A DNA stretch of 55,526 bases from Patescibacteria group bacterium (GCA_042571625.1 JBHPFQ010000001.1:1-55526); one strand, 5' to 3'; positions 40,001 through 50,204 are shown, counted from the first letter of the stretch. Program-made: numbers and translations. The notes: generated from the letters alone by a model not told the origin.

Positions 40001-40333
40001 AACTGTTTTATTTCTATTATTAACTAATTTGACCCGACATCGCAAAGGCGCTTCGTAAGAAACATTATGAATTTTAGCTTCACTTTCAGTATATTTCGGT
40101 TCATCCAAATAATAATCCAAGAAATGTAATTCTAAATCTTTGCCACCCCAGTCTTTTATCGGAGAAATTTCATCAAAAAGATTGCGTAATCCTTTTTTCC
40201 AAAACCAATTATAAGAATTAGTTTGAACTTCAATAAGGTTAGGGAGTTTAAACCCAGCACCATTTAAGGATCGTTTTTTAAATTTATTCTCCTCGTCTAT
40301 CCTTGAAGAATGAGAAGTAGAAATATTAGGCAT
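37064..40333 (-). CDS. rpoB: DNA-directed RNA polymerase subunit beta
   Basis: About 1089 aa. Conserved GRHGNKGV and FGGQRFGEMEVWALE motifs. Start set at the ATG (MPNIST); the track start is a GTG 12 nt upstream. Confidence 0.97.
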   Translation of the reverse strand: MPNISTSHSSRIDEENKFKKRSLNGAGFKLPNLIEVQTNSYNWFWKKGLRNLFDEISPIKDWGGKDLELHFLDYYLDEPKYTESEAKIHNVSYEAPLRCRVKLVNNRNKTVREQDMFLGDFPLMTKRGTFIVNAVERVIISQLVRSSGAFFVLQGNSKKVTKNYKRVFGAKIIPNRGAWLEFETDSDGGISVKIDKKRKVPITALLRVFYALSKSKGKIKSSSEFLSSDELKKKFADIDNGETNHIEETLRKDQSKTIGEAFVEIYKRIRPGDLATEDNARSFIETMLSFERYDLGEVGRWKMGQRLNIKKIGADEEITKEDRILYFDDIVAIVREIIRLNNTPEAMPDDIDHLGNRRVRALGELLQNKLRVGLTRMERIIRDRMSTLDIQELMPSQLINPRPFTASIKEFFTSFQLSQFMDQVNPLAELEHKRRLSAMGPSGLTRERAGFEVRDVHSSYYGRICPIETPEGPNIGLVGHLTTCARLNKYGFIETPYRKVVKGKVTNEIVYLNAWEEERYNIAHGGVDIGENNILVDKKVEARVYGHPSTVSRSKIDYMDVSPQQTISIATSLIPFLEHDDSHRALMGSNMQRQAVACINPQAPLVGTGIEGRAAKDSGQLVVAEENGTVEEIDADHIKIKSKNKNKGSKIYNLRSFNKTNQCTCISQHPIAQKGQKIKKGDILADGAATDKGELALGQNLLVAFVSLQGCNFEDAIILSEKLVKQDRYTSIHIESFNCDVCETKLGSEITTPDIPNVGEERLKDLDEDGIIRIGAEVNPNDILVGKISPKGETDLTAEERLLQAIFGEKARDVKDTSLRMPHGKRGRIVGIQIFSRDNGDKLQAGVIKSIQIEVAQLRRISVGDKLAGRHGNKGVIARILPEEDMPYLADGTPVEVVLNPLGVPSRMNIGQILETHLGWAANALGIKINSAALVGVREQEIRNHLKSANLPENGKVILYDGRSGEPFDQPVTVGYIYVMKLDHLVEDKIHMRSVGPYSLITQQPLGGKAQFGGQRFGEMEVWALEGYGASNILQEMLTIKSDDIAGRAGAYDSIIRGKSIQAPNIPASFNVLVNELKALGLNVELLEK

Positions 40334-40465
40334 ACAAAAAAACACACAACCCCCTATTTATCCTTATGGAGGTTCTATTGCTTATTATAAAATTATTGAT
40401 AATAAATAATATCCAAAATCCAAGTATTAAATTATATTTTAAGTATAGACAATTATTAAAAAAAG

Positions 40466-41056
40466 TCAATAGGATATATTATCAAATATAGATTTTAACT
40501 TTAATATCAATTTTTGCTTTATTTGCTCATTAGCTTTATTAACCCTGCGATAAATATATTTATGTGTAATTTTTGAATTAACAATTAAATTAATCGCCGA
40601 ACTAGCTAGAAAGGAAGGAGCAGAAAATGTTAAATTAATTGCCTTGTATGGAAACTGACCAAGCTCCTTGCTTTTAGCTTCAACTCCTTTTAGAATATTT
40701 CTAACTTTTTCTTTCTTAACTGAATTTGCTAATTCAATAGCTTTCTGACTTTGATTGAAAATAAAATCTTCTGCTCCAACAATTGTTTTATTACCAGTTT
40801 TAACAATGGAAAGATTAAATTCACTAATCAAACATGCCATATTTTCTCCAGCGCTTTGATTAAAAGCCAAGACAAAAGAAAAAATAAACAGAACCATCAA
40901 TACAACGCATAAAATAAATTTTGGATTTTTATAATCGTATGCCTTTATAAATTCCGATACCGCTAATTTTGTTTTATCAAAAAACAACAAACCTTTATCT
41001 ATTTGCAATCCAATATTTAAAGATACGCGCTTAATGAAATTATCTTTCTTTGGCAT
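40466..41056 (-). CDS. hypothetical membrane-anchored protein
   Basis: 196 aa with one TM segment (FILCVVLMVLFIFSFVLAF). No recognised domain. Confidence 0.45.
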   Translation of the reverse strand: MPKKDNFIKRVSLNIGLQIDKGLLFFDKTKLAVSEFIKAYDYKNPKFILCVVLMVLFIFSFVLAFNQSAGENMACLISEFNLSIVKTGNKTIVGAEDFIFNQSQKAIELANSVKKEKVRNILKGVEAKSKELGQFPYKAINLTFSAPSFLASSAINLIVNSKITHKYIYRRVNKANEQIKQKLILKLKSIFDNISY

Positions 41057-41165
41057 TTTTATTAATTCTCTTACTTAATTATATAATGCCAAGATATGCA
41101 GTCAATGTTGATAAAAAATATATTGAATATTATTACTAATTATAGATAAAATTATTCTCTGCTCT

Positions 41166-41306
41166 GTTACGTAGCATGCTACGTAACAATTTTATTTTAG
41201 CAAGAAAATTAGAGTTTACAAAAAAGACAGATTTTTTCCGATAAATTAAAGGGCTACCCTTCGCAAAGGGTAGTTCCCTTTAATTTTGCGGTTAAAAATC
41301 GTCTTT
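41166..41306 (+). repeat. modular hairpin element, copy 2 (perfect 22-bp palindrome plus long composite hairpin)
   Basis: gttacgtagcatgctacgtaac (41166-41187). aaagacagatttttt (41223-41237) pairs with aaaaatcgtcttt (41294-41306). Inner hairpin aaattaaagggctaccctt-cgca-aagggtagttccctttaattt (41244-41287). ttgcggttaaaaat at 41286-41299. Confidence 0.6.
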
Positions 41307-41400
41307 ACCAAAAATAATTTGCCACGTATGTACGTTTGTATTGTACGCACAACAATCTTAAACAAAAAATTGTTGATTAATTTAAAATATGTAAAAAAAT

Positions 41401-41421
41401 GGGGAAGCGTAAAGCTTCCCC
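41401..41421 (-). terminator. terminator hairpin
   Basis: ggggaagc-gtaa-agcttcccc. A T run follows on the minus strand (plus-strand A run 41394-41400). Confidence 0.6.
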
Positions 41422-41436
41422 GTTAAATATAAATAA

Positions 41437-41544
41437 TTATTTGACCATTTTATCCCAAACGCGTCTTTTAATTTTTTCTAAGAAAAATTCTATTTTAAAT
41501 CGTAAGAAAAAGAAATATAAATAAATTTTATTATATAAGTCCAT
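41437..41544 (-). CDS. small ORF (35 aa), hypothetical
   Basis: GAGGAGG RBS 4 nt before the ATG. Hand translation MDLYNKIYLYFFFLRFKIEFFLEKIKRRVWDKMVK. Promoter-like TTGATT-N16-TGATACAAT at 41588-41615. Terminator at 41401-41421. Confidence 0.35.
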   Translation of the reverse strand: MDLYNKIYLYFFFLRFKIEFFLEKIKRRVWDKMVK

Positions 41545-41647
41545 CTTGCCTCCTCTTTATAAGATTATTAAAAAACTAATATTTACTATTGTATCACCAA
41601 ATCCATAAAAATCAACTCCTGACCAAAAAGTTTTAATTTTTTTTCCC

Positions 41648-41676
41648 TTGACAAAAACAGAACAATACGCTATCAT
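41648..41676 (+). promoter_or_regulatory. sigma70-like promoter TTGACA-N17-TATCAT
   Basis: ttgacaaaaacagaacaatacgctatcat, about 50 nt upstream of the small ORF at 41726. Confidence 0.5.
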
Positions 41677-41725
41677 AATATCAATACGAAAAAGTTATTT
41701 AAAATAACAATTTAAGGAGAAAATA

Positions 41726-41881
41726 ATGGATTTTATGGGAGAAGTAATAGCTATAATTTCGATACTTATCTGTACAGCAGTTTCCATTTATTCGGATCCA
41801 TGCTATTTAAATATAATTTTAATCACAATATTTTCGCTCTTGGCAATTATTTGTATAATTGCAGAAGCAAAAAAATACTAA
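41726..41881 (+). CDS. small two-TM membrane peptide (51 aa), hypothetical
   Basis: AAGGAG RBS. Hand translation MDFMGEVIAIISILICTAVSIYSDPCYLNIILITIFSLLAIICIIAEAKKY. Consensus promoter upstream and terminator at 41904-41939. Confidence 0.45.
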   Translation: MDFMGEVIAIISILICTAVSIYSDPCYLNIILITIFSLLAIICIIAEAKKY

Positions 41882-41903
41882 AAAAAATACTAAATAATAA
41901 AAT

Positions 41904-41939
41904 GAGACAATCAAGTTATACTTGGTTGTCTCTTTTTTT
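41904..41939. terminator. terminator hairpin with T run
   Basis: gagacaatcaag (41904-41915) pairs with cttggttgtctc (41921-41932), then ttttttt. Confidence 0.65.
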
Positions 41940-43017
41940 AACTCCTGACATTAATACTCTGCAATATTCCTAGTCCTAAAAAAATACTTATTAAACTGCT
42001 ACCGCCATAACTTACCAATGGCAATGTTAAACCAGTAATTGGTAGAATAGCCATATTCATACCAATATTAATAAATAATTGCGCTAAGAGCATAATTGCA
42101 AAACCACTTGCAAAAAGACGAGAGAAATTATTTGAAGCGTTCAATGCAATTTTAATTATTCTCCATATTAAAAAAGCAAAAAGAATTAACAATAACAATA
42201 TACCAGCAAACCCCCTTTGCTCTGCCCAAGCCGCGAAAATAAAATCAGTATATTGTTCAGGCAAAAATTTTAAAGCAGCTTGCAATCCTCCTTCCGCGCT
42301 CTGTCCAAATAATCCGCCCGAACCAATAGTAATTAATGACTGACTAACATGATATCCACTTCCATAAGGATCTTTTTGCGGATCTAAAAAAGTAAGAATT
42401 CTTTGTTTTTGATACCCTTTCAAAATGCTAAACCAGCTTCCTGCAAACAATAAAATAATTACTAAAAATAAAATAACTAAATGGCGCATTTTTATGCCGG
42501 CGATCATAACAAGACCAAGCCAAATACAGCATAAAATAATAGAAGACCCAAAGTCCGGCTGTAATAAAACCATAATAACAGGCGTTCCAACATAAAATCC
42601 TGAAACTATTAGATGCTTAATATTATACATTTCTATATGTCTTAAAGAAAAATATTTTGCTAAAAATAAAATAATAATCAATTTAACAAATTCTATTGGC
42701 TCTAAATTAATCGGACCTAATCTAAACCAGCTGGAAGCTCCTCTAATGCTCTGACAAAATAATACGATAAACAAAAAAAATAAAGCGGACAAATAAAGAA
42801 TAATTAGAATAGAAGAATGATTTTTTAAAGCGCGATAATCAAAAAAACTTATAAATATCATAATAAACAACCCAAGGCAAAGGAAAATAATTTGCTTTTT
42901 AAGATAAAACATTGATTCAGAAGAGCCAATATTATAAATAGTAAAAAGCCCCGTCCCAGAGATGAACAAAGCAATAAAAGATAGATGCCAATCAATTTTC
43001 CTAAAATGATTGTACAT
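41938..43017 (-). CDS. rodA: FtsW/RodA/SpoVE family peptidoglycan glycosyltransferase
   Basis: Polytopic. The QPDFGS and LPLVSYGGSS motifs are typical of SEDS proteins. Start moved to the ATG (MYNHFRKIDW); the track start is a TTG. Confidence 0.85.
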   Translation of the reverse strand: MYNHFRKIDWHLSFIALFISGTGLFTIYNIGSSESMFYLKKQIIFLCLGLFIMIFISFFDYRALKNHSSILIILYLSALFFLFIVLFCQSIRGASSWFRLGPINLEPIEFVKLIIILFLAKYFSLRHIEMYNIKHLIVSGFYVGTPVIMVLLQPDFGSSIILCCIWLGLVMIAGIKMRHLVILFLVIILLFAGSWFSILKGYQKQRILTFLDPQKDPYGSGYHVSQSLITIGSGGLFGQSAEGGLQAALKFLPEQYTDFIFAAWAEQRGFAGILLLLILFAFLIWRIIKIALNASNNFSRLFASGFAIMLLAQLFINIGMNMAILPITGLTLPLVSYGGSSLISIFLGLGILQSINVRS

Positions 43018-43914: not shown

Positions 43915-43995
43915 TTGCGTTCAAAAAAATTACATATAAAAATTAGAAAATTAACCCTAATGAATTTGATTAAACAATCAAATTTTCATTACAAG

Positions 43996-46950
<2,955 letters not shown>

Positions 46951-47138
46951 CTCTGTAATGAAAATTTGATTATAATCAAATTTCATAGAGTTAATTTTCT
47001 AATTTTTATACAAGACGTTTATTCAATTATAAAAAAACTGAACAAAAAAACCGCTTCAAACGGTCTTTTTGTTTTATCAGACCTTGCCAAAACTGATTTC
47101 TATCAAAATTATCCAAACGTATCTTTACTGTCTGATGT

Positions 47139-47206: not shown

Positions 47207-47890
47207 TTATTTTTCCGCAATATTTTTTCTCATTTTTTCTAAGATTTGGCTAGCCAAATCTTTTCCACCTAAACCGAATGAAAGACCTACACTAATTGCT
47301 AAAGCCGCAACCAAACCAGTGAAAATTGTCTGCATTAAAGCAGGAACAATTCCTAATTGGATTAAAGCAGCTAGAATAGCAAAAATTAATATGCCCCACT
47401 TAGCTACTCCACTTAAAGCGCTTGACGATCCTAATCCTGCTGTATCAACGCTAGCTTTCACTATTTTTCCTAAAACATTAGCAATTAAAACTCCTGCAAG
47501 CAGAATGAAAACAGCTACAATTAATCTAGGAATGTATAAAAGAATCTGTCCTAAAAATTCTGTAATTTGTGCTAACCCTAATATATCAGTAGAAGCCATT
47601 AAAAATACGATTATGAAAAACCACTTAACAAGCTCTCCAATAAACTTGCTTGAGTTTAATTTCATATTTGCTCTGCTCAAACTTTTCTTAAATCCAATCC
47701 TCTCCAAAATTTGATCAACTCTTAACATCTGAATAATCTGTCCTGCAAGTTTTCCTAAAATTTCAGCAACAAACCAACCAAATATAAAGACAACAATAGC
47801 CCCTAATAAATTTGGCAAAAAACTCATAAAACCAGACCAAAGTGCTTGAAAAGAAGTTGTTATAACTTCTCCCCATGTTTGTATCATCAT
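47207..47890 (-). CDS. polytopic membrane protein with conserved-TM-helix repeats (mechanosensitive-channel-related family, tentative)
   Basis: 227 aa. Repeated pattern of hydrophobic helix plus basic loop (LLGAIVVFIFGWFVAEILGKLAGQII, IVAVFILLAGVLIANVLGKIVKASV). Strong RBS AAAGGGGGTGA before ATGATG. Lies between the 16S-tRNA region and 23S. Confidence 0.6.
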   Translation of the reverse strand: MMIQTWGEVITTSFQALWSGFMSFLPNLLGAIVVFIFGWFVAEILGKLAGQIIQMLRVDQILERIGFKKSLSRANMKLNSSKFIGELVKWFFIIVFLMASTDILGLAQITEFLGQILLYIPRLIVAVFILLAGVLIANVLGKIVKASVDTAGLGSSSALSGVAKWGILIFAILAALIQLGIVPALMQTIFTGLVAALAISVGLSFGLGGKDLASQILEKMRKNIAEK

Positions 47891-48004
47891 TTATTTTCAC
47901 CCCCTTTCATATATAAGATTAATTAACTATTTTCAAATCCGTATATTTTTTACTTATTATTATAATAGCATAAAAGGCAAGAAAATGCCTGTGGATAAAA
48001 TAAA

Positions 48005-48043
48005 TGTGGGCGGAGGAAGTCACCCGAAGGGTGAGAACTTCCC
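48005..48043 (-). pseudogene. rearranged copy of the tRNA-Ile 3' half (acceptor 3' strand plus T stem, T loop replaced by a TTCG-capped hairpin)
   Basis: tgtgggcggaggaag (48005-48019) and gaacttccc (48035-48043) are identical to 48066-48080 and 48085-48093 of tRNA-Ile. The intervening aatc is replaced by tcacccgaagggtga. Confidence 0.6.
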
Positions 48044-48067
48044 GTTCAATCTTTCATATTTCTATTG

Positions 48068-48139
48068 TGGGCGGAGGAAGAATCGAACTTCCCACCTCTT
48101 CTTTATCAGAGAAGCGTTCTACCACTGAACTACCCGCCC
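48068..48139 (-). tRNA. tRNA-Ile (anticodon GAT), CCA not encoded
   Basis: Minus-sense GGGCGGGTAGTTCAGTGGTAGAACGCTTCTCTGATAAAGAAGAGGTGGGAAGTTCGATTCTTCCTCCGCCCA. Canonical 72-nt cloverleaf. Confidence 0.9.
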
Positions 48140-48146
48140 TAAAAAA

Positions 48147-48221
48147 TGGTGCGCGGACCTGGAGTTGAACCAGATACAATACAGCCCGGTTAAGCTGCCC
48201 TATCCGTTTAGTTGTCCGCGC
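48147..48221 (-). tRNA. atypical tRNA-like gene, CCA encoded, non-canonical anticodon loop; identity undetermined
   Basis: Minus-sense GCGCGGACAACTAAACGGATAGGGCAGCTTAACCGGGCTGTATTGTATCTGGTTCAACTCCAGGTCCGCGCACCA. Acceptor is 7 bp. T arm is TCTGG-TTCAACT-CCAGG. D loop has GG. The anticodon stem pairs only as CAGC/GCTG, leaving an 8-nt (TTAACCGG) or 6-nt loop. Confidence 0.55.
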
Positions 48222-48280
48222 ATTTCTTATAAGAATAATAACAAAAAAAACCTACCGAAGCAAGTTTCTTTTGTTATAAA

Positions 48281-48305: not shown

Positions 48306-48475
48306 TGCCTTAATCATCTAAATTTTAATTTAGTATTGATTAAGAGCATCCCGTCGTATGACGGGAGTAGCCGACATTTAGGGCTGTTCGGCCAATACCC
48401 TAGGATTGAGATAAGAATTCTATATCTCAATTCTAATCGACACCCCAACTCTTTAATAAAAATTAAAAAATTAGA

Positions 48476-49962
<1,487 letters not shown>

Positions 49963-50204
49963 AAGATGAAAGCAATGAATCTTTTTTAAACCCTGTCGAA
50001 TGACAGGGCAAAAAGACACATCATCCCGTTATACAACGGGACGCTCTTGTTTGTAACCGCTAACGCGGACAAACAAGGCGAACTCTCAATAAAAAATTTT
50101 TCAAAAAATAAAAATTTTCAAAAAAAAATTAGTTTGGGCAACTGCATAAAATTGCAATTGCTATTGCTGGTATTTAATTTTTAGGAAACTAATGAAATGA
50201 TATA

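What the first reader, a model, noticed from the sequence alone, without database searches (positions are those of the whole stretch)
48147..48221. CCA-encoding tRNA-like gene after 16S with an anticodon loop that cannot be drawn as 7 nt
Seen in sequence:
- The 75-nt minus-strand gene has a perfect 7-bp acceptor (GCGCGGA/TCCGCGC), discriminator A and an encoded CCA.
- It has a canonical T arm (TCTGG-TTCAACT-CCAGG) and a D loop with GG.
- The only anticodon-stem pairing is CAGC/GCTG. Adding G.T leaves an 8-nt loop TTAACCGG. Adding T.G leaves a 6-nt loop TAACCG.
- No register gives a 5-bp stem with a 7-nt loop. Position 8 is C rather than U.

Context: it occupies the slot after 16S where tRNA-Ala usually sits. 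It lacks the G3:U70 Ala determinant and a TGC anticodon, and I found no tRNA-Ala in the locus.

Inference: the candidates are an expanded-anticodon-loop tRNA (such tRNAs are known as frameshift suppressors), a regulatory or processing tRNA-like element, a decaying tRNA, or a 1-nt homopolymer assembly error. Removing one C would give TTAACGG (anticodon AAC). Removing one A would give TTACCGG (anticodon ACC).
Basis: partly seen in the sequence, partly recalled or inferred. Interest (0 to 1): 0.7.

Follow-up and report, generated by a model that had tools for sequence, protein, structure and literature searches.

The report
Orphan tRNA-like gene beside tRNA-Ile
A one-off tRNA-shaped gene next to the real isoleucine tRNA in a Patescibacteria ribosomal RNA operon keeps the tRNA's "handle" but has no workable anticodon loop, so it is most likely a retired tRNA copy that is still cut out of the transcript, not a new kind of decoder.

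Summary
Window 48221-48147 (minus strand) is a 75-nt cloverleaf with a perfect 7-bp acceptor, A73, encoded CCA, a TTCAACT T loop and G18G19. Its anticodon arm is a symmetric 18-nt hairpin that allows only 4-, 6-, 8- or 10-nt loops. It scores just below tRNA thresholds: Rfam 25.8 bits against a cut-off of 29, and ARAGORN only at 90% of its threshold. Removing one loop base does not make it canonical.

The organism is a Paceibacteria-like Patescibacterium. The element is the first gene after a conserved spacer promoter module, where relatives have tRNA-Ile(GAU). An intact tRNA-Ile(GAU) lies 7 nt downstream. I found no homologue in about 25 related spacers, 97 related loci, or the JGI metagenome, IMG/VR, phage and plasmid searches.

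Its stems resemble the tRNA-Ile of the nearest clades. The differences are mostly compensatory.

Best reading: a lineage-specific, non-decoding pseudo-tRNA, probably the displaced spacer tRNA-Ile. It is likely still co-transcribed and released by RNase P. A decoding 8-nt-loop tRNA (about 0.1) and an assembly error (about 0.03) are unlikely.

Relatives also carry non-decoding tRNA-like genes inside a 23S helix-45 insertion, and tRNA genes nested in tRNA remnants.

The parts
48147..48221 (-). tRNA-like element, 75 nt. Acceptor 5' strand 48221-48215; C8 at 48214; D arm 48211-48200; anticodon-arm hairpin 48198-48181; T arm 48174-48158; acceptor 3' strand 48157-48151; A73 at 48150; CCA 48149-48147.
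   Evidence: Sequence. ARAGORN at -ps90 and -ps80. Rfam tRNA 25.8 bits, below the 29-bit cut-off. Fold energies. Strict-pattern control.
48186..48193 (-). The '8-nt loop' TTAACCGG. It is part of a symmetric 18-nt hairpin that can only give loops of 4, 6, 8 or 10 nt.
   Evidence: Register enumeration. The closed 7-bp/4-nt form is 1.8 kcal/mol better than the open 8-nt form.
48235..48277 (-). Conserved module: hairpin, T-run, then an extended -10. It reads TTGCTT (48263-48258), 17 nt, TG (48243-48242), n, TATTAT (48240-48235). The -10 hexamer ends 13 nt before the element, so a start 6-8 nt after it would leave a 5-7-nt leader. In relatives the same module directly precedes tRNA-Ile.
   Evidence: The hairpin was flagged as terminator-like. 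The module aligns by eye with L002, L006, L014, L020, L021, L022 and L024. The promoter reading is my inference; the simple consensus scan did not flag it, because the -35 matches only 3 of 6.
48140..48146 (-). 7-nt spacer TTTTTTA between the encoded CCA and G1 of tRNA-Ile.
48067..48139 (-). Intact tRNA-Ile(GAU) of the 'GGGCGGG type', with no encoded CCA. This is the presumed working decoder.
   Evidence: ARAGORN. Rfam 68.9 bits. The same type is intact in the same slot in L020.
48005..48043 (-). 3' remnant of the GGGCGGG-type tRNA-Ile: T stem plus acceptor 3' strand, with the T loop replaced by an 18-nt insert that can form a hairpin. Contains a 15-nt exact direct repeat of the tRNA-Ile 3' end.
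   Evidence: Sequence. Direct repeat 48005-48019 = 48066-48080.
48475..49964 (-). 16S rRNA, upstream in the same operon.
   Evidence: Rfam.
47207..47890 (-). Gene for an MS_channel_1st_1-domain membrane protein, lying between tRNA-Ile and 23S. Used as the synteny anchor to collect relatives.
   Evidence: Pfam PF05552, E = 7.7e-19. Homologues and their contigs.
43988..46957 (-). 23S rRNA, downstream in the same operon. It has no insertion at helix 45.
   Evidence: Rfam. Anchor spacing of 83 nt.

Best explanation
The element is a lineage-specific, tRNA-derived gene that no longer decodes, that is, a pseudo-tRNA. It is most likely the former spacer tRNA-Ile(GAU) of this lineage. It became redundant when a second tRNA-Ile(GAU) gene of the 'GGGCGGG type' came to lie 7 nt downstream.

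Proposed mechanism (inferred, not shown):
- It is transcribed as the first unit after the conserved spacer promoter module, and also on read-through from 16S. tRNA-Ile, the membrane-protein gene, 23S and 5S are on the same transcript.
- Its intact acceptor/T-arm stack, T loop, G18G19 elbow and ACCA end make it an RNase P substrate.
- RNase P cuts at its G1 and at G1 of tRNA-Ile 7 nt further on. After 3' trimming, this releases a stable tRNA-shaped RNA of about 75 nt.
- It cannot present a normal anticodon. The arm is a symmetric 18-nt hairpin, position 8 is C, and the D arm is reduced.

Within this reading I put about 0.4 on the tRNA shape being kept by selection, either as a processing or punctuation module or for another role outside translation. 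I put about 0.3 on a functionless relic that is merely still processed.
For: Real and tRNA-derived, but sub-canonical:
- establish the cloverleaf and its near-threshold scores.
- ARAGORN calls it only at 90% of threshold.
- No single-base deletion rescues it.

Slot:
- In L006-L009, L014/L015, L020 and L024 (16S-linked), and in L002, L021 and L022, the hairpin + T-run + TGnTAnnAT module is followed directly by tRNA-Ile.
- Here the same module is followed by the element and then tRNA-Ile.

Resemblance to the clade's tRNA-Ile:
- A covariance model of the element hits the relatives' 'regular' tRNA-Ile genes best: L013 at 31.8 bits and L014 at 29.1 bits.
- It does not hit the window's own tRNA-Asn, tRNA-Gln or tRNA-Ile.
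- Anticodon stem CAGCT/GGCTG matches CAGCT/AGCTG, which is found only in the nearest clades (L013, L014, L139).
- T stem TCTGG/CCAGG matches TCTGG/CCAGA of L013.
- CCA is encoded, as in L013 and L014.
- A73, C4:G69 and U12:A23 are kept.

Structure kept:
- Against an L013-like ancestor there are 10 stem substitutions in 6 pairs, and 5 of those pairs still pair.
- 2:71, 6:67 and 13:22 are double compensatory changes, each unique to the element.
- In simulation, P(at most 1 broken pair | 10 random stem substitutions) = 1.5e-4.
- Several changes go from AT to GC in a genome of about 31% GC.

A decoder is present next door:
- tRNA-Ile scores 68.9 bits.

Precedent in the same bacterial class:
- 7 of 31 23S genes examined carry tRNA-like genes (Rfam 47-74 bits) inside a helix-45 insertion.
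- These have canonical acceptor, D and T arms and mostly an encoded NCCA.
- Their anticodon loops are unusable: no U33, Y37, 6-nt loops or mismatched stems.

The spacer tRNA slot is a turnover hot spot:
- Remnants and nested tRNA genes occur in the window, L002 and L031.
Against: - There are no expression, end-mapping or charging data.
- The element is an orphan, so no covariation test within its own family is possible.
- Descent from tRNA-Ile is not proven. Global identity to L013 tRNA-Ile is 50/72, against 38-47/72 for non-Ile tRNAs and 42-47/72 for the other tRNA-Ile genes.
- The acceptor stem is slightly closer to the GGGCGGG type. The ancestor used in the simulation is therefore an assumption.
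- RNase P needs only the acceptor/T minihelix, so a purely processing role does not explain the perfect anticodon stem.
- Relatives process the same transcript without such an element, so it is dispensable.
- ARAGORN hits at this score level are not rare in random sequence: 11 in 1.1 Mb of shuffles.
Confidence: 0.68

Rival explanations
1. It is a working decoder with an expanded 8-nt anticodon loop (U32 U33 A A C C G37 G38). It would be charged, for example by ValRS through A35, C36 and A73. It would read GGUU as a quadruplet (+1 frameshift) or GUU as a triplet.
For: - In the 8-nt register, U33 and a purine at position 37 are in place, and ARAGORN draws it as tRNA-?(Val|Gly)(aacc).
- All four stems pair, the T loop and G18G19 are intact, and CCA is encoded.
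- A promoter module lies directly upstream.
- Natural 8-nt-loop decoders exist, such as yeast mitochondrial tRNA-Thr (PMC3113583).
Against: - It is absent from every related spacer and locus and from all collections searched. A new decoder would need matching codons or genes.
- It has A34, whereas the CPR lacks the one standard bacterial A34 tRNA, tRNA-Arg(ACG) (PMC8629427).
- It has C8, a 3-bp D stem with a 6-nt loop, and a 6-7-nt variable loop.
- It scores below the Rfam and ARAGORN thresholds.
- The closed 7-bp/4-nt hairpin is favoured by 1.8 kcal/mol. This is weak evidence, because RNAfold also over-pairs the real tRNA-Ile loop.
- The overlapping adjacent ORF pairs examined in the window are all distinct complete genes. 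No split genes were found.
Confidence: 0.1
2. It is a functionless, recently dead tRNA gene copy that happens still to fold. No selection acts on it, and it may not accumulate as RNA.
For: - It is an orphan.
- It has several non-canonical features at once.
- It lies in a locus littered with tRNA debris.
- It is redundant with the adjacent tRNA-Ile.
Against: - It is about 31% diverged from the nearest candidate parent, yet 20 of 21 stem pairs still pair. This includes three double compensatory changes and AT-to-GC changes in an AT-rich genome.
- The conserved loop nucleotides are kept: T54, T55, C56, A58, A14, R15, G18, G19 and A21.
- Both arguments depend on the assumed ancestor.
Confidence: 0.2
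3. It is a normal tRNA gene (Val or Gly) damaged by a 1-nt assembly or sequencing indel in the loop.
For: The loop is a run of short homopolymers (TT AA CC GGG).
Against: - None of the four single-base deletions reaches ARAGORN's default threshold.
- The repaired anticodons would be AAC or ACC, both A34, which is not expected in the CPR.
- C8 and the D-arm and variable-loop anomalies would remain.
- The window has intact long ORFs (rpoB at 1093 aa, and an ORF of 1188 aa) and full-length rRNAs, so indel errors are rare.
Confidence: 0.03

Closest known systems
Pseudo-tRNAs / tRNA-like small RNAs, e.g. Bacillus cereus tRNA-Other (PMC3399842)
   Same: A chromosomal tRNA-shaped gene that lacks conserved tRNA features and is predicted to act outside translation. 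That paper proposes that inactivated tRNA genes can be recruited to other roles.
   Different: tRNA-Other has a normal-size loop with a Trp anticodon and flanks a genomic island. [quoted passage not shown] It has experimental phenotypes and affects trpS1 expression. The element here is an orphan, sits in an rRNA spacer, has no 7-nt loop, and has no functional data.
+1 frameshift-suppressor tRNAs with 8-nt anticodon loops (sufD, sufA6, SufB2; from my own knowledge)
   Same: An 8-nt loop can be drawn with U33, four 'anticodon' bases and a purine at position 37.
   Different: Suppressors are otherwise canonical isoacceptors carrying one inserted base. Here, removing one base does not restore a canonical tRNA. 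Position 34 is A, and positions 8, the D arm and the variable loop are also aberrant.
Yeast mitochondrial tRNA-Thr(UAG) with an 8-nt loop (PMC3113583)
   Same: A natural tRNA with an enlarged loop that arose by recruitment of another isoacceptor's gene (tRNA-His). The parallel here would be a tRNA-Ile copy.
   Different: That tRNA is part of an established codon reassignment and has a co-evolved synthetase. The element here has no relatives and no evidence of codon change.
Partial, non-canonical tRNA genes left by integrating elements (PMC9897764)
   Same: The locus shows such debris. There is a 3' tRNA-Ile remnant with a 15-nt direct repeat, and relatives have split tRNA halves.
   Different: The element itself is a complete cloverleaf with its own acceptor pairing. 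It is not a 5' or 3' fragment, and no integrase is nearby.
Spacer tRNAs of rRNA operons acting as RNase P/Z punctuation; CPR operons with tRNAs and protein genes in the spacer (PMC8172020)
   Same: Same location and orientation, co-transcribed with rRNA. [quoted passage not shown]
   Different: Spacer tRNAs are normally bona fide decoders (Ile, Ala). This one is not.
tRNA-like genes inside 23S helix-45 insertions of related Paceibacteria
   Same: Same bacterial class, embedded in rRNA operon transcripts. Acceptor and T arm are intact, NCCA is encoded and the anticodon loop is unusable.
   Different: They lie inside 23S, have the canonical GTAGCTCAG..GGTAGAGC D arm and pass the Rfam tRNA threshold at 47-59 bits. 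The element is in the spacer, has a reduced D arm and scores 25.8 bits. No specific sequence kinship was seen.

Membership tests
Canonical bacterial elongator tRNA (Rfam RF00005) | Covariance-model score at or above the curated cut-off of 29 bits | tested here: not met
   25.8 bits when searched alone. Not reported in the gathering-threshold search or in the 531-nt E<=10 search. Real tRNAs in the window score 60-70 bits.
Canonical bacterial elongator tRNA (Rfam RF00005) | 5-bp anticodon stem closing a 7-nt loop with U33 and a purine at 37 | tested here: not met
   Only loops of 4, 6, 8 or 10 nt are possible.
Canonical bacterial elongator tRNA (Rfam RF00005) | U8, and a 4-bp D stem with a D loop of 7-11 nt | tested here: not met
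   C8; A10.G25 mismatch leaving 3 bp; 6-nt loop.
Canonical bacterial elongator tRNA (Rfam RF00005) | 7-bp acceptor, 5-bp T stem, T54 T55 C56 R57 A58 T loop, G18G19 | tested here: met
Canonical bacterial elongator tRNA (Rfam RF00005) | Orthologues in related genomes | tested here: not met
   Absent from the related spacers and from 97 loci.
+1 frameshift-suppressor tRNA (8-nt loop) | Otherwise canonical isoacceptor differing by one inserted loop base | tested here: not met
   All four single-base deletions stay below ARAGORN's default threshold.
+1 frameshift-suppressor tRNA (8-nt loop) | Genes that need quadruplet reading | tested here: inconclusive
   No split genes among the overlapping adjacent ORFs of the 55-kb window. 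The rest of the genome was not available.
+1 frameshift-suppressor tRNA (8-nt loop) | Aminoacylation and ribosomal A-site use | not testable with these tools
   Needs charged-tRNA sequencing or biochemistry.
Pseudo-tRNA / tRNA-like small RNA | tRNA-derived cloverleaf lacking conserved elements required for decoding | tested here: met
Pseudo-tRNA / tRNA-like small RNA | Expressed and processed but not used in translation | not testable with these tools
   Only the promoter-like module and the RNase P determinants can be read from sequence.
tRNA gene fragment from element integration | Truncated 5' or 3' part of a tRNA, with a direct repeat of the tRNA end, next to a mobile element | tested here: not met
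   The element is a complete cloverleaf. The criterion is met instead by the neighbouring remnant 48005-48043.
Paceibacteria 23S helix-45 tRNA-like inserts (defined here) | Located in the 23S helix-45 insertion, with the canonical GTAGCTCAG..GGTAGAGC D arm | tested here: not met
   The window's 23S has no insert. The D arm differs.
Paceibacteria 23S helix-45 tRNA-like inserts (defined here) | Intact acceptor and T arm, encoded NCCA, non-decoding anticodon loop, embedded in an rRNA operon | tested here: met
tmRNA tRNA-like domain / YrlA | Match to the Rfam family model | tested here: not met
   No tmRNA. The YrlA hit is 21.7 bits against a cut-off of 69 and spans two genes.

The most novel reading that the evidence does not exclude
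The element is a working tRNA with a genuine 8-nt anticodon loop (anticodon AACC or AAC) in a Patescibacterium. It would be charged, perhaps by ValRS through A35, C36 and A73. It would be used for quadruplet (GGUU) reading or an unusual form of GUU reading. That would make it a natural expanded-loop decoder in a free-standing bacterial genome.
Probability: 0.08. Interest if true: 0.8.

Novelty: new member of a known kind. Interest (0 to 1): 0.35.

Why it matters
On its own this is a minor annotation point. A tRNA-shaped gene just under detection thresholds should be annotated as a tRNA-like or pseudo-tRNA, not as a tRNA with a 4-base anticodon.

It matters more as part of a pattern seen while checking it. 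In this class of small-genome bacteria, the rRNA operon is a place where tRNA genes are duplicated, nested, split and kept as non-decoding tRNA-shaped modules. These occur in the 16S-23S spacer and inside a 23S helix-45 insertion.

If these modules are RNase P-dependent processing signals, they bear on two questions. One is how CPR bacteria mature rRNAs that carry insertions. The other is how tRNA genes are retired or recruited to new roles.

Tried and rejected
Homologue searches that found nothing:
- A pattern anchored on the D, anticodon and T loops. In JGI metagenome contigs it gave one chance hit inside a coding region (L016). In IMG/VR it gave nothing.
- T arm plus acceptor, 25-mer, in IMG/VR: nothing.
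- Acceptor with a gap, then acceptor + CCA, in IMG/VR: 28 hits. Three are the same tRNA-Met-like gene and the rest are chance.
- Anticodon-arm 16-mer in IMG/VR: 11 chance hits in coding DNA.
- blastn against phages and plasmids: only generic T-arm matches, E >= 2.
- Covariance model R1 over 572 kb of related loci: it matched only tRNA-Ile genes, one 23S-insert tRNA-like gene and one 13-bit match.
- Protein search with the antisense 106-aa ORF, as a trick to reach spacer DNA: nothing.
- Exact-protein look-ups for window proteins: not on record. The source genome is not among the GTDB representatives; the best relative is 70% identical.

Ideas rejected:
- tRNA-Ala replacement. There is no G3:U70, it is the wrong slot, and the clade's spacers lack tRNA-Ala anyway.
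- A functional link to the adjacent trmD. The rpsP-KH-trmD cluster is conserved next to 16S in relatives that lack the element.
- A phage origin for the GGGCGGG-type tRNA-Ile. The single IMG/VR hit, L017, is a tRNA-Val 5' fragment at an integration site.
- Homology with the unknown tRNA 'X' upstream of tRNA-Ile in L013. Only 18 nt are available, and a structural parse gives a different T stem, a different acceptor and U73. This remains unresolved.
- Loop complementarity to another RNA in the window. CCGGTTAA occurs only in the element itself and antisense to trmD, which is the chance level.
- MFE fold as evidence. The minimum-energy structure is a rod, but the cloverleaf is within 0.3 kcal/mol. 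RNAfold also misfolds the genuine tRNA-Ile loop.

Full report
**1. What is there**

On the minus strand the window carries an rRNA operon. In order it holds 16S (49964-48475), a 253-nt spacer, the element (48221-48147), 7 nt, and tRNA-Ile(GAU) (48139-48067). Next come a 3' remnant of tRNA-Ile, a 227-aa membrane-protein gene (47890-47207), 23S (46957-43988) and 5S.

Upstream of 16S lie rpsP, a KH-domain gene and trmD. Further upstream are RNase III and nusB. GC content is about 31%. Homologues of the spacer protein come from Parcubacteria, Paceibacteria and Patescibacteria MAGs.

**2. Checking the observation**

- a perfect 7-bp acceptor, GCGCGGA/TCCGCGC;
- A73 and an encoded CCA;
- T arm TCTGG-TTCAACT-CCAGG, where the outer pair is U.G;
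- GG in the D loop, and C at position 8.

Enumerating every register shows that the anticodon arm is a symmetric 18-nt hairpin. It can only be drawn as 7 bp/4 nt, 6 bp/6 nt, 5 bp/8 nt or 4 bp/10 nt, never with a 7-nt loop.

The feature is far beyond chance. A strict acceptor + NCCA + T-arm pattern finds only this element and tRNA-Gln in the window, and nothing in 300 shuffled windows.

It lies just under the detection thresholds:
- ARAGORN calls it only at 90% of its threshold, as tRNA-?(Val|Gly)(aacc). At that level random sequence gives about 0.5 hits per window.
- Rfam's tRNA model gives 25.8 bits (cut-off 29) when the element is searched alone. The model's filters drop it in wider searches.

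The cloverleaf is within 0.3 kcal/mol of the minimum-energy fold. An 8-bp acceptor with a 4-bp T stem, using C8-G65, is the more stable version.

**3. Is it an assembly error?**

This is unlikely, for four reasons:
- None of the four possible single-base deletions in the loop lifts the gene over ARAGORN's default threshold. C8->U is needed as well.
- The repaired anticodons would be AAC or ACC, with A34. The CPR lacks the one standard bacterial A34 tRNA, tRNA-Arg(ACG), and uses a GCG anticodon instead (PMC8629427).
- The window shows no indel damage. The long ORFs and rRNAs are intact, and neighbouring overlapping ORFs are separate complete genes.
- No independent assembly of the species exists in the collections. 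The nearest relative is 86% identical in the anchor protein, so only the reads can settle this.

**4. Comparison with relatives**

I used the spacer membrane-protein gene as a synteny anchor. With it I collected contigs from relatives at 65-86% protein identity, plus 80 GTDB loci.

A conserved module consists of a hairpin, a T-run and an extended -10 (TGnTAnnAT). It precedes the first spacer tRNA in L002, L006-L009, L014/L015, L020, L021, L022 and L024, and that tRNA is always tRNA-Ile(GAU). In the window the same module is followed 13 nt later by the element and then by tRNA-Ile.

So the element sits in the tRNA-Ile slot, not the tRNA-Ala slot. The clade's spacers generally have no tRNA-Ala.

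No relative has the element:
- A covariance model built from it (R1) finds only itself, the relatives' tRNA-Ile genes, one 23S-embedded tRNA-like gene and one 13-bit match in 572 kb.
- Pattern scans of JGI metagenomes and IMG/VR gave only chance hits. So did blastn against phages and plasmids, and a protein-level trick.

**5. Where it probably came from**

The window's working tRNA-Ile is a 'GGGCGGG type'. This type is also intact in L020 and split in L002. Most relatives have a 'regular' type, GGGCGTG....

Model R1 scores the regular tRNA-Ile genes best (L013 at 31.8 bits, L014 at 29.1 bits). It does not match the window's own three tRNAs.

The element shares several features with the nearest clades:
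- anticodon stem CAGCT/(A>G)GCTG, as in L013, L014 and L139;
- T stem TCTGG/CCAG(A>G), as in L013;
- encoded CCA, as in L013 and L014;
- A73, C4:G69 and U12:A23.

Against an L013-like ancestor, 6 of 21 stem pairs changed and 5 of them still pair. Three are double compensatory changes (2:71, 6:67, 13:22), each unique to the element in the alignment. The chance of at most one broken pair after 10 random stem substitutions is 1.5e-4. Several changes run from AT to GC in an AT-rich genome.

The T-loop and D-loop invariants survive: T54, T55, C56, A58, A14, R15, G18, G19 and A21. In contrast, the anticodon loop, the variable loop and the length of the D loop are rewritten.

Caveats apply to this ancestry:
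- Global identity to L013 tRNA-Ile (50/72) is only slightly above that to unrelated tRNAs (38-47/72).
- The acceptor is marginally closer to the GGGCGGG type.
- Descent from tRNA-Ile is therefore likely, at about 0.6, but not shown. The simulation rests on it.

**6. How it most likely works**

This section is inference. The element is transcribed with tRNA-Ile, the membrane-protein gene and 23S/5S from the spacer promoter module, and also on 16S read-through. RNase P recognises its intact acceptor/T stack, elbow and ACCA end. It cuts at G48221 and again 7 nt past the CCA, at G1 of tRNA-Ile. Trimming of UUUUUUA then leaves a tRNA-shaped RNA.

It does not decode, because there is no 7-nt loop and because of A34, C8 and the reduced D arm. 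It may be kept as a processing or punctuation module, have some other role outside translation, or be tolerated debris. This cannot be told from sequence. I split these at about 0.4 (shape under selection) and 0.3 (relic).

**7. Context found on the way**

*(a) tRNA-like genes inside 23S.* In 12 of 31 23S genes examined in the related loci, the helix-45 hairpin carries an insertion of 157-681 nt. Helix 45 is the classical IVS site. Seven of these insertions contain tRNA matches above the Rfam cut-off (47-74 bits).
- One looks like a genuine tRNA-Ala(UGC).
- The others cannot decode: no U33, a pyrimidine at 37, 6-nt loops, mismatched anticodon stems, or Leu/Tyr anticodons without a long variable arm.
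- They nevertheless keep canonical acceptor, D and T arms, and most encode NCCA.
- A 2024 survey of CPR rRNA insertions does not mention tRNA at all (PMC11270868).
- These inserts show that non-decoding tRNA-shaped modules recur in rRNA operon transcripts of this class. This supports the non-decoding reading here. The window element is not a sequence relative of them.

*(b) Turnover in the spacer tRNA slot.*
- L031 and L002 have an intact tRNA-Ile lying where the anticodon region of another tRNA-Ile-like gene should be, between that gene's 5' and 3' halves.
- The window has a 3' tRNA-Ile remnant with a 15-nt exact direct repeat.

**8. Comparison with known things**

- The nearest named category is the pseudo-tRNA or tRNA-like small RNA, for example B. 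cereus tRNA-Other (PMC3399842).
- It does not meet the definition of a canonical tRNA, since several defining features were tested and failed.
- It does not meet the definition of a classical 8-nt-loop frameshift suppressor, which is one inserted base in an otherwise normal tRNA.
- It does not meet the definition of an integration-derived tRNA fragment (PMC9897764).
- Natural 8-nt-loop decoders exist (PMC3113583), but they are part of an established codon reassignment with a co-evolved synthetase.
- CPR rRNA operons with tRNAs and protein genes in the spacer are already described (PMC8172020).

**9. Verdict**

- It is most likely a lineage-specific, non-decoding tRNA-like gene derived from the spacer tRNA-Ile (0.68, including the relic variant).
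- A decoder with an 8-nt loop has about 0.1, and an artefact about 0.03.
- Novelty: a new member of a known kind.
- Interest is modest for the element itself. The 23S-embedded tRNA-like modules and the nested tRNA genes deserve a separate look.

Noticed in passing
L039 5784-5858; L052 5466-5545; L055 5886-5958; L057 6257-6326; L059 5617-5727 and 5750-5823; L092 6359-6437; L094 5454-5529: tRNA(-like) genes (Rfam 47-74 bits) lie inside an insertion in the helix-45 hairpin of the 23S rRNA gene in 7 of 31 23S genes examined. One looks like a real tRNA-Ala(UGC). The others keep canonical acceptor, D and T arms, and most encode NCCA, but their anticodon loops are unusable. A 2024 survey of CPR rRNA insertions (PMC11270868) never mentions tRNA. 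Five further 23S genes have inserts without a tRNA-like gene (L003/L004, L020, L041, L046). The window's 23S has none.
   Followed up: partly
L031 ~540-760; L002 ~2355-2590: Nested tRNA genes. An intact tRNA-Ile(GAU) with short A/T-rich linkers sits where the anticodon region of another tRNA-Ile-like gene should be. That gene's 5' and 3' halves flank it. I know of no mechanism that explains this; it is not the usual integrase attL/attR pattern.
   Followed up: partly
window 48005-48043 (minus strand); direct repeat 48005-48019 = 48066-48080: A 3' remnant of the GGGCGGG-type tRNA-Ile lies 24 nt after the intact gene. Its T loop is replaced by an 18-nt insert that can form a hairpin. L137 and L138 show a similarly damaged tRNA-Ile 3' end. 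It may be a scar of integration and excision at the T loop.
   Followed up: partly
window 47207-47890 (minus strand): A 227-aa gene with a mechanosensitive-channel TM-helix domain (PF05552) lies inside the rRNA operon between tRNA-Ile and 23S. In relatives at 65% identity or more, wherever the upstream region was recovered, it lies just downstream of tRNA-Ile. Many of its contigs are only about 1.2 kb long, as expected for a gene bracketed by rRNA.
   Followed up: partly
window 47990-47998 (minus strand); same motif in L001, L012, L013, L014, L018, L020, L021, L024, L137, L139: A perfect DnaA-box-like nonamer, TTATCCACA, is conserved just upstream of the promoter-like region of the spacer membrane-protein gene. 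In some relatives CCACAGG...CCTGTGG also forms a terminator-like hairpin. Cumulative GC skew falls steadily across the window, with no turning point.
   Followed up: no
window 48235-48277 (minus strand) and equivalents in L002, L006, L014, L020-L022, L024: A conserved composite module: hairpin (ACTTGC..GCAAGT), T-run, then TGnTAnnAT. It looks like both an intrinsic terminator and an extended -10 promoter. It is kept whether the upstream gene is 16S or a protein gene.
   Followed up: partly
L013 1-18: The 3' end of an unidentified tRNA (..TCGAGTCCGGTCGTGCAC) lies 6 nt upstream of tRNA-Ile in the clade at 80% identity. This is the same spacing as the element has to tRNA-Ile in the window. The contig is truncated, so I could not decide whether the two are related.
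   Followed up: partly
window 41056-41938: An AT-rich stretch of about 880 nt (GC about 27% in the 40001-42000 window) with no ORF of 60 aa or more and no Rfam match. It lies between a 196-aa ORF and ftsW/rodA.
   Followed up: no
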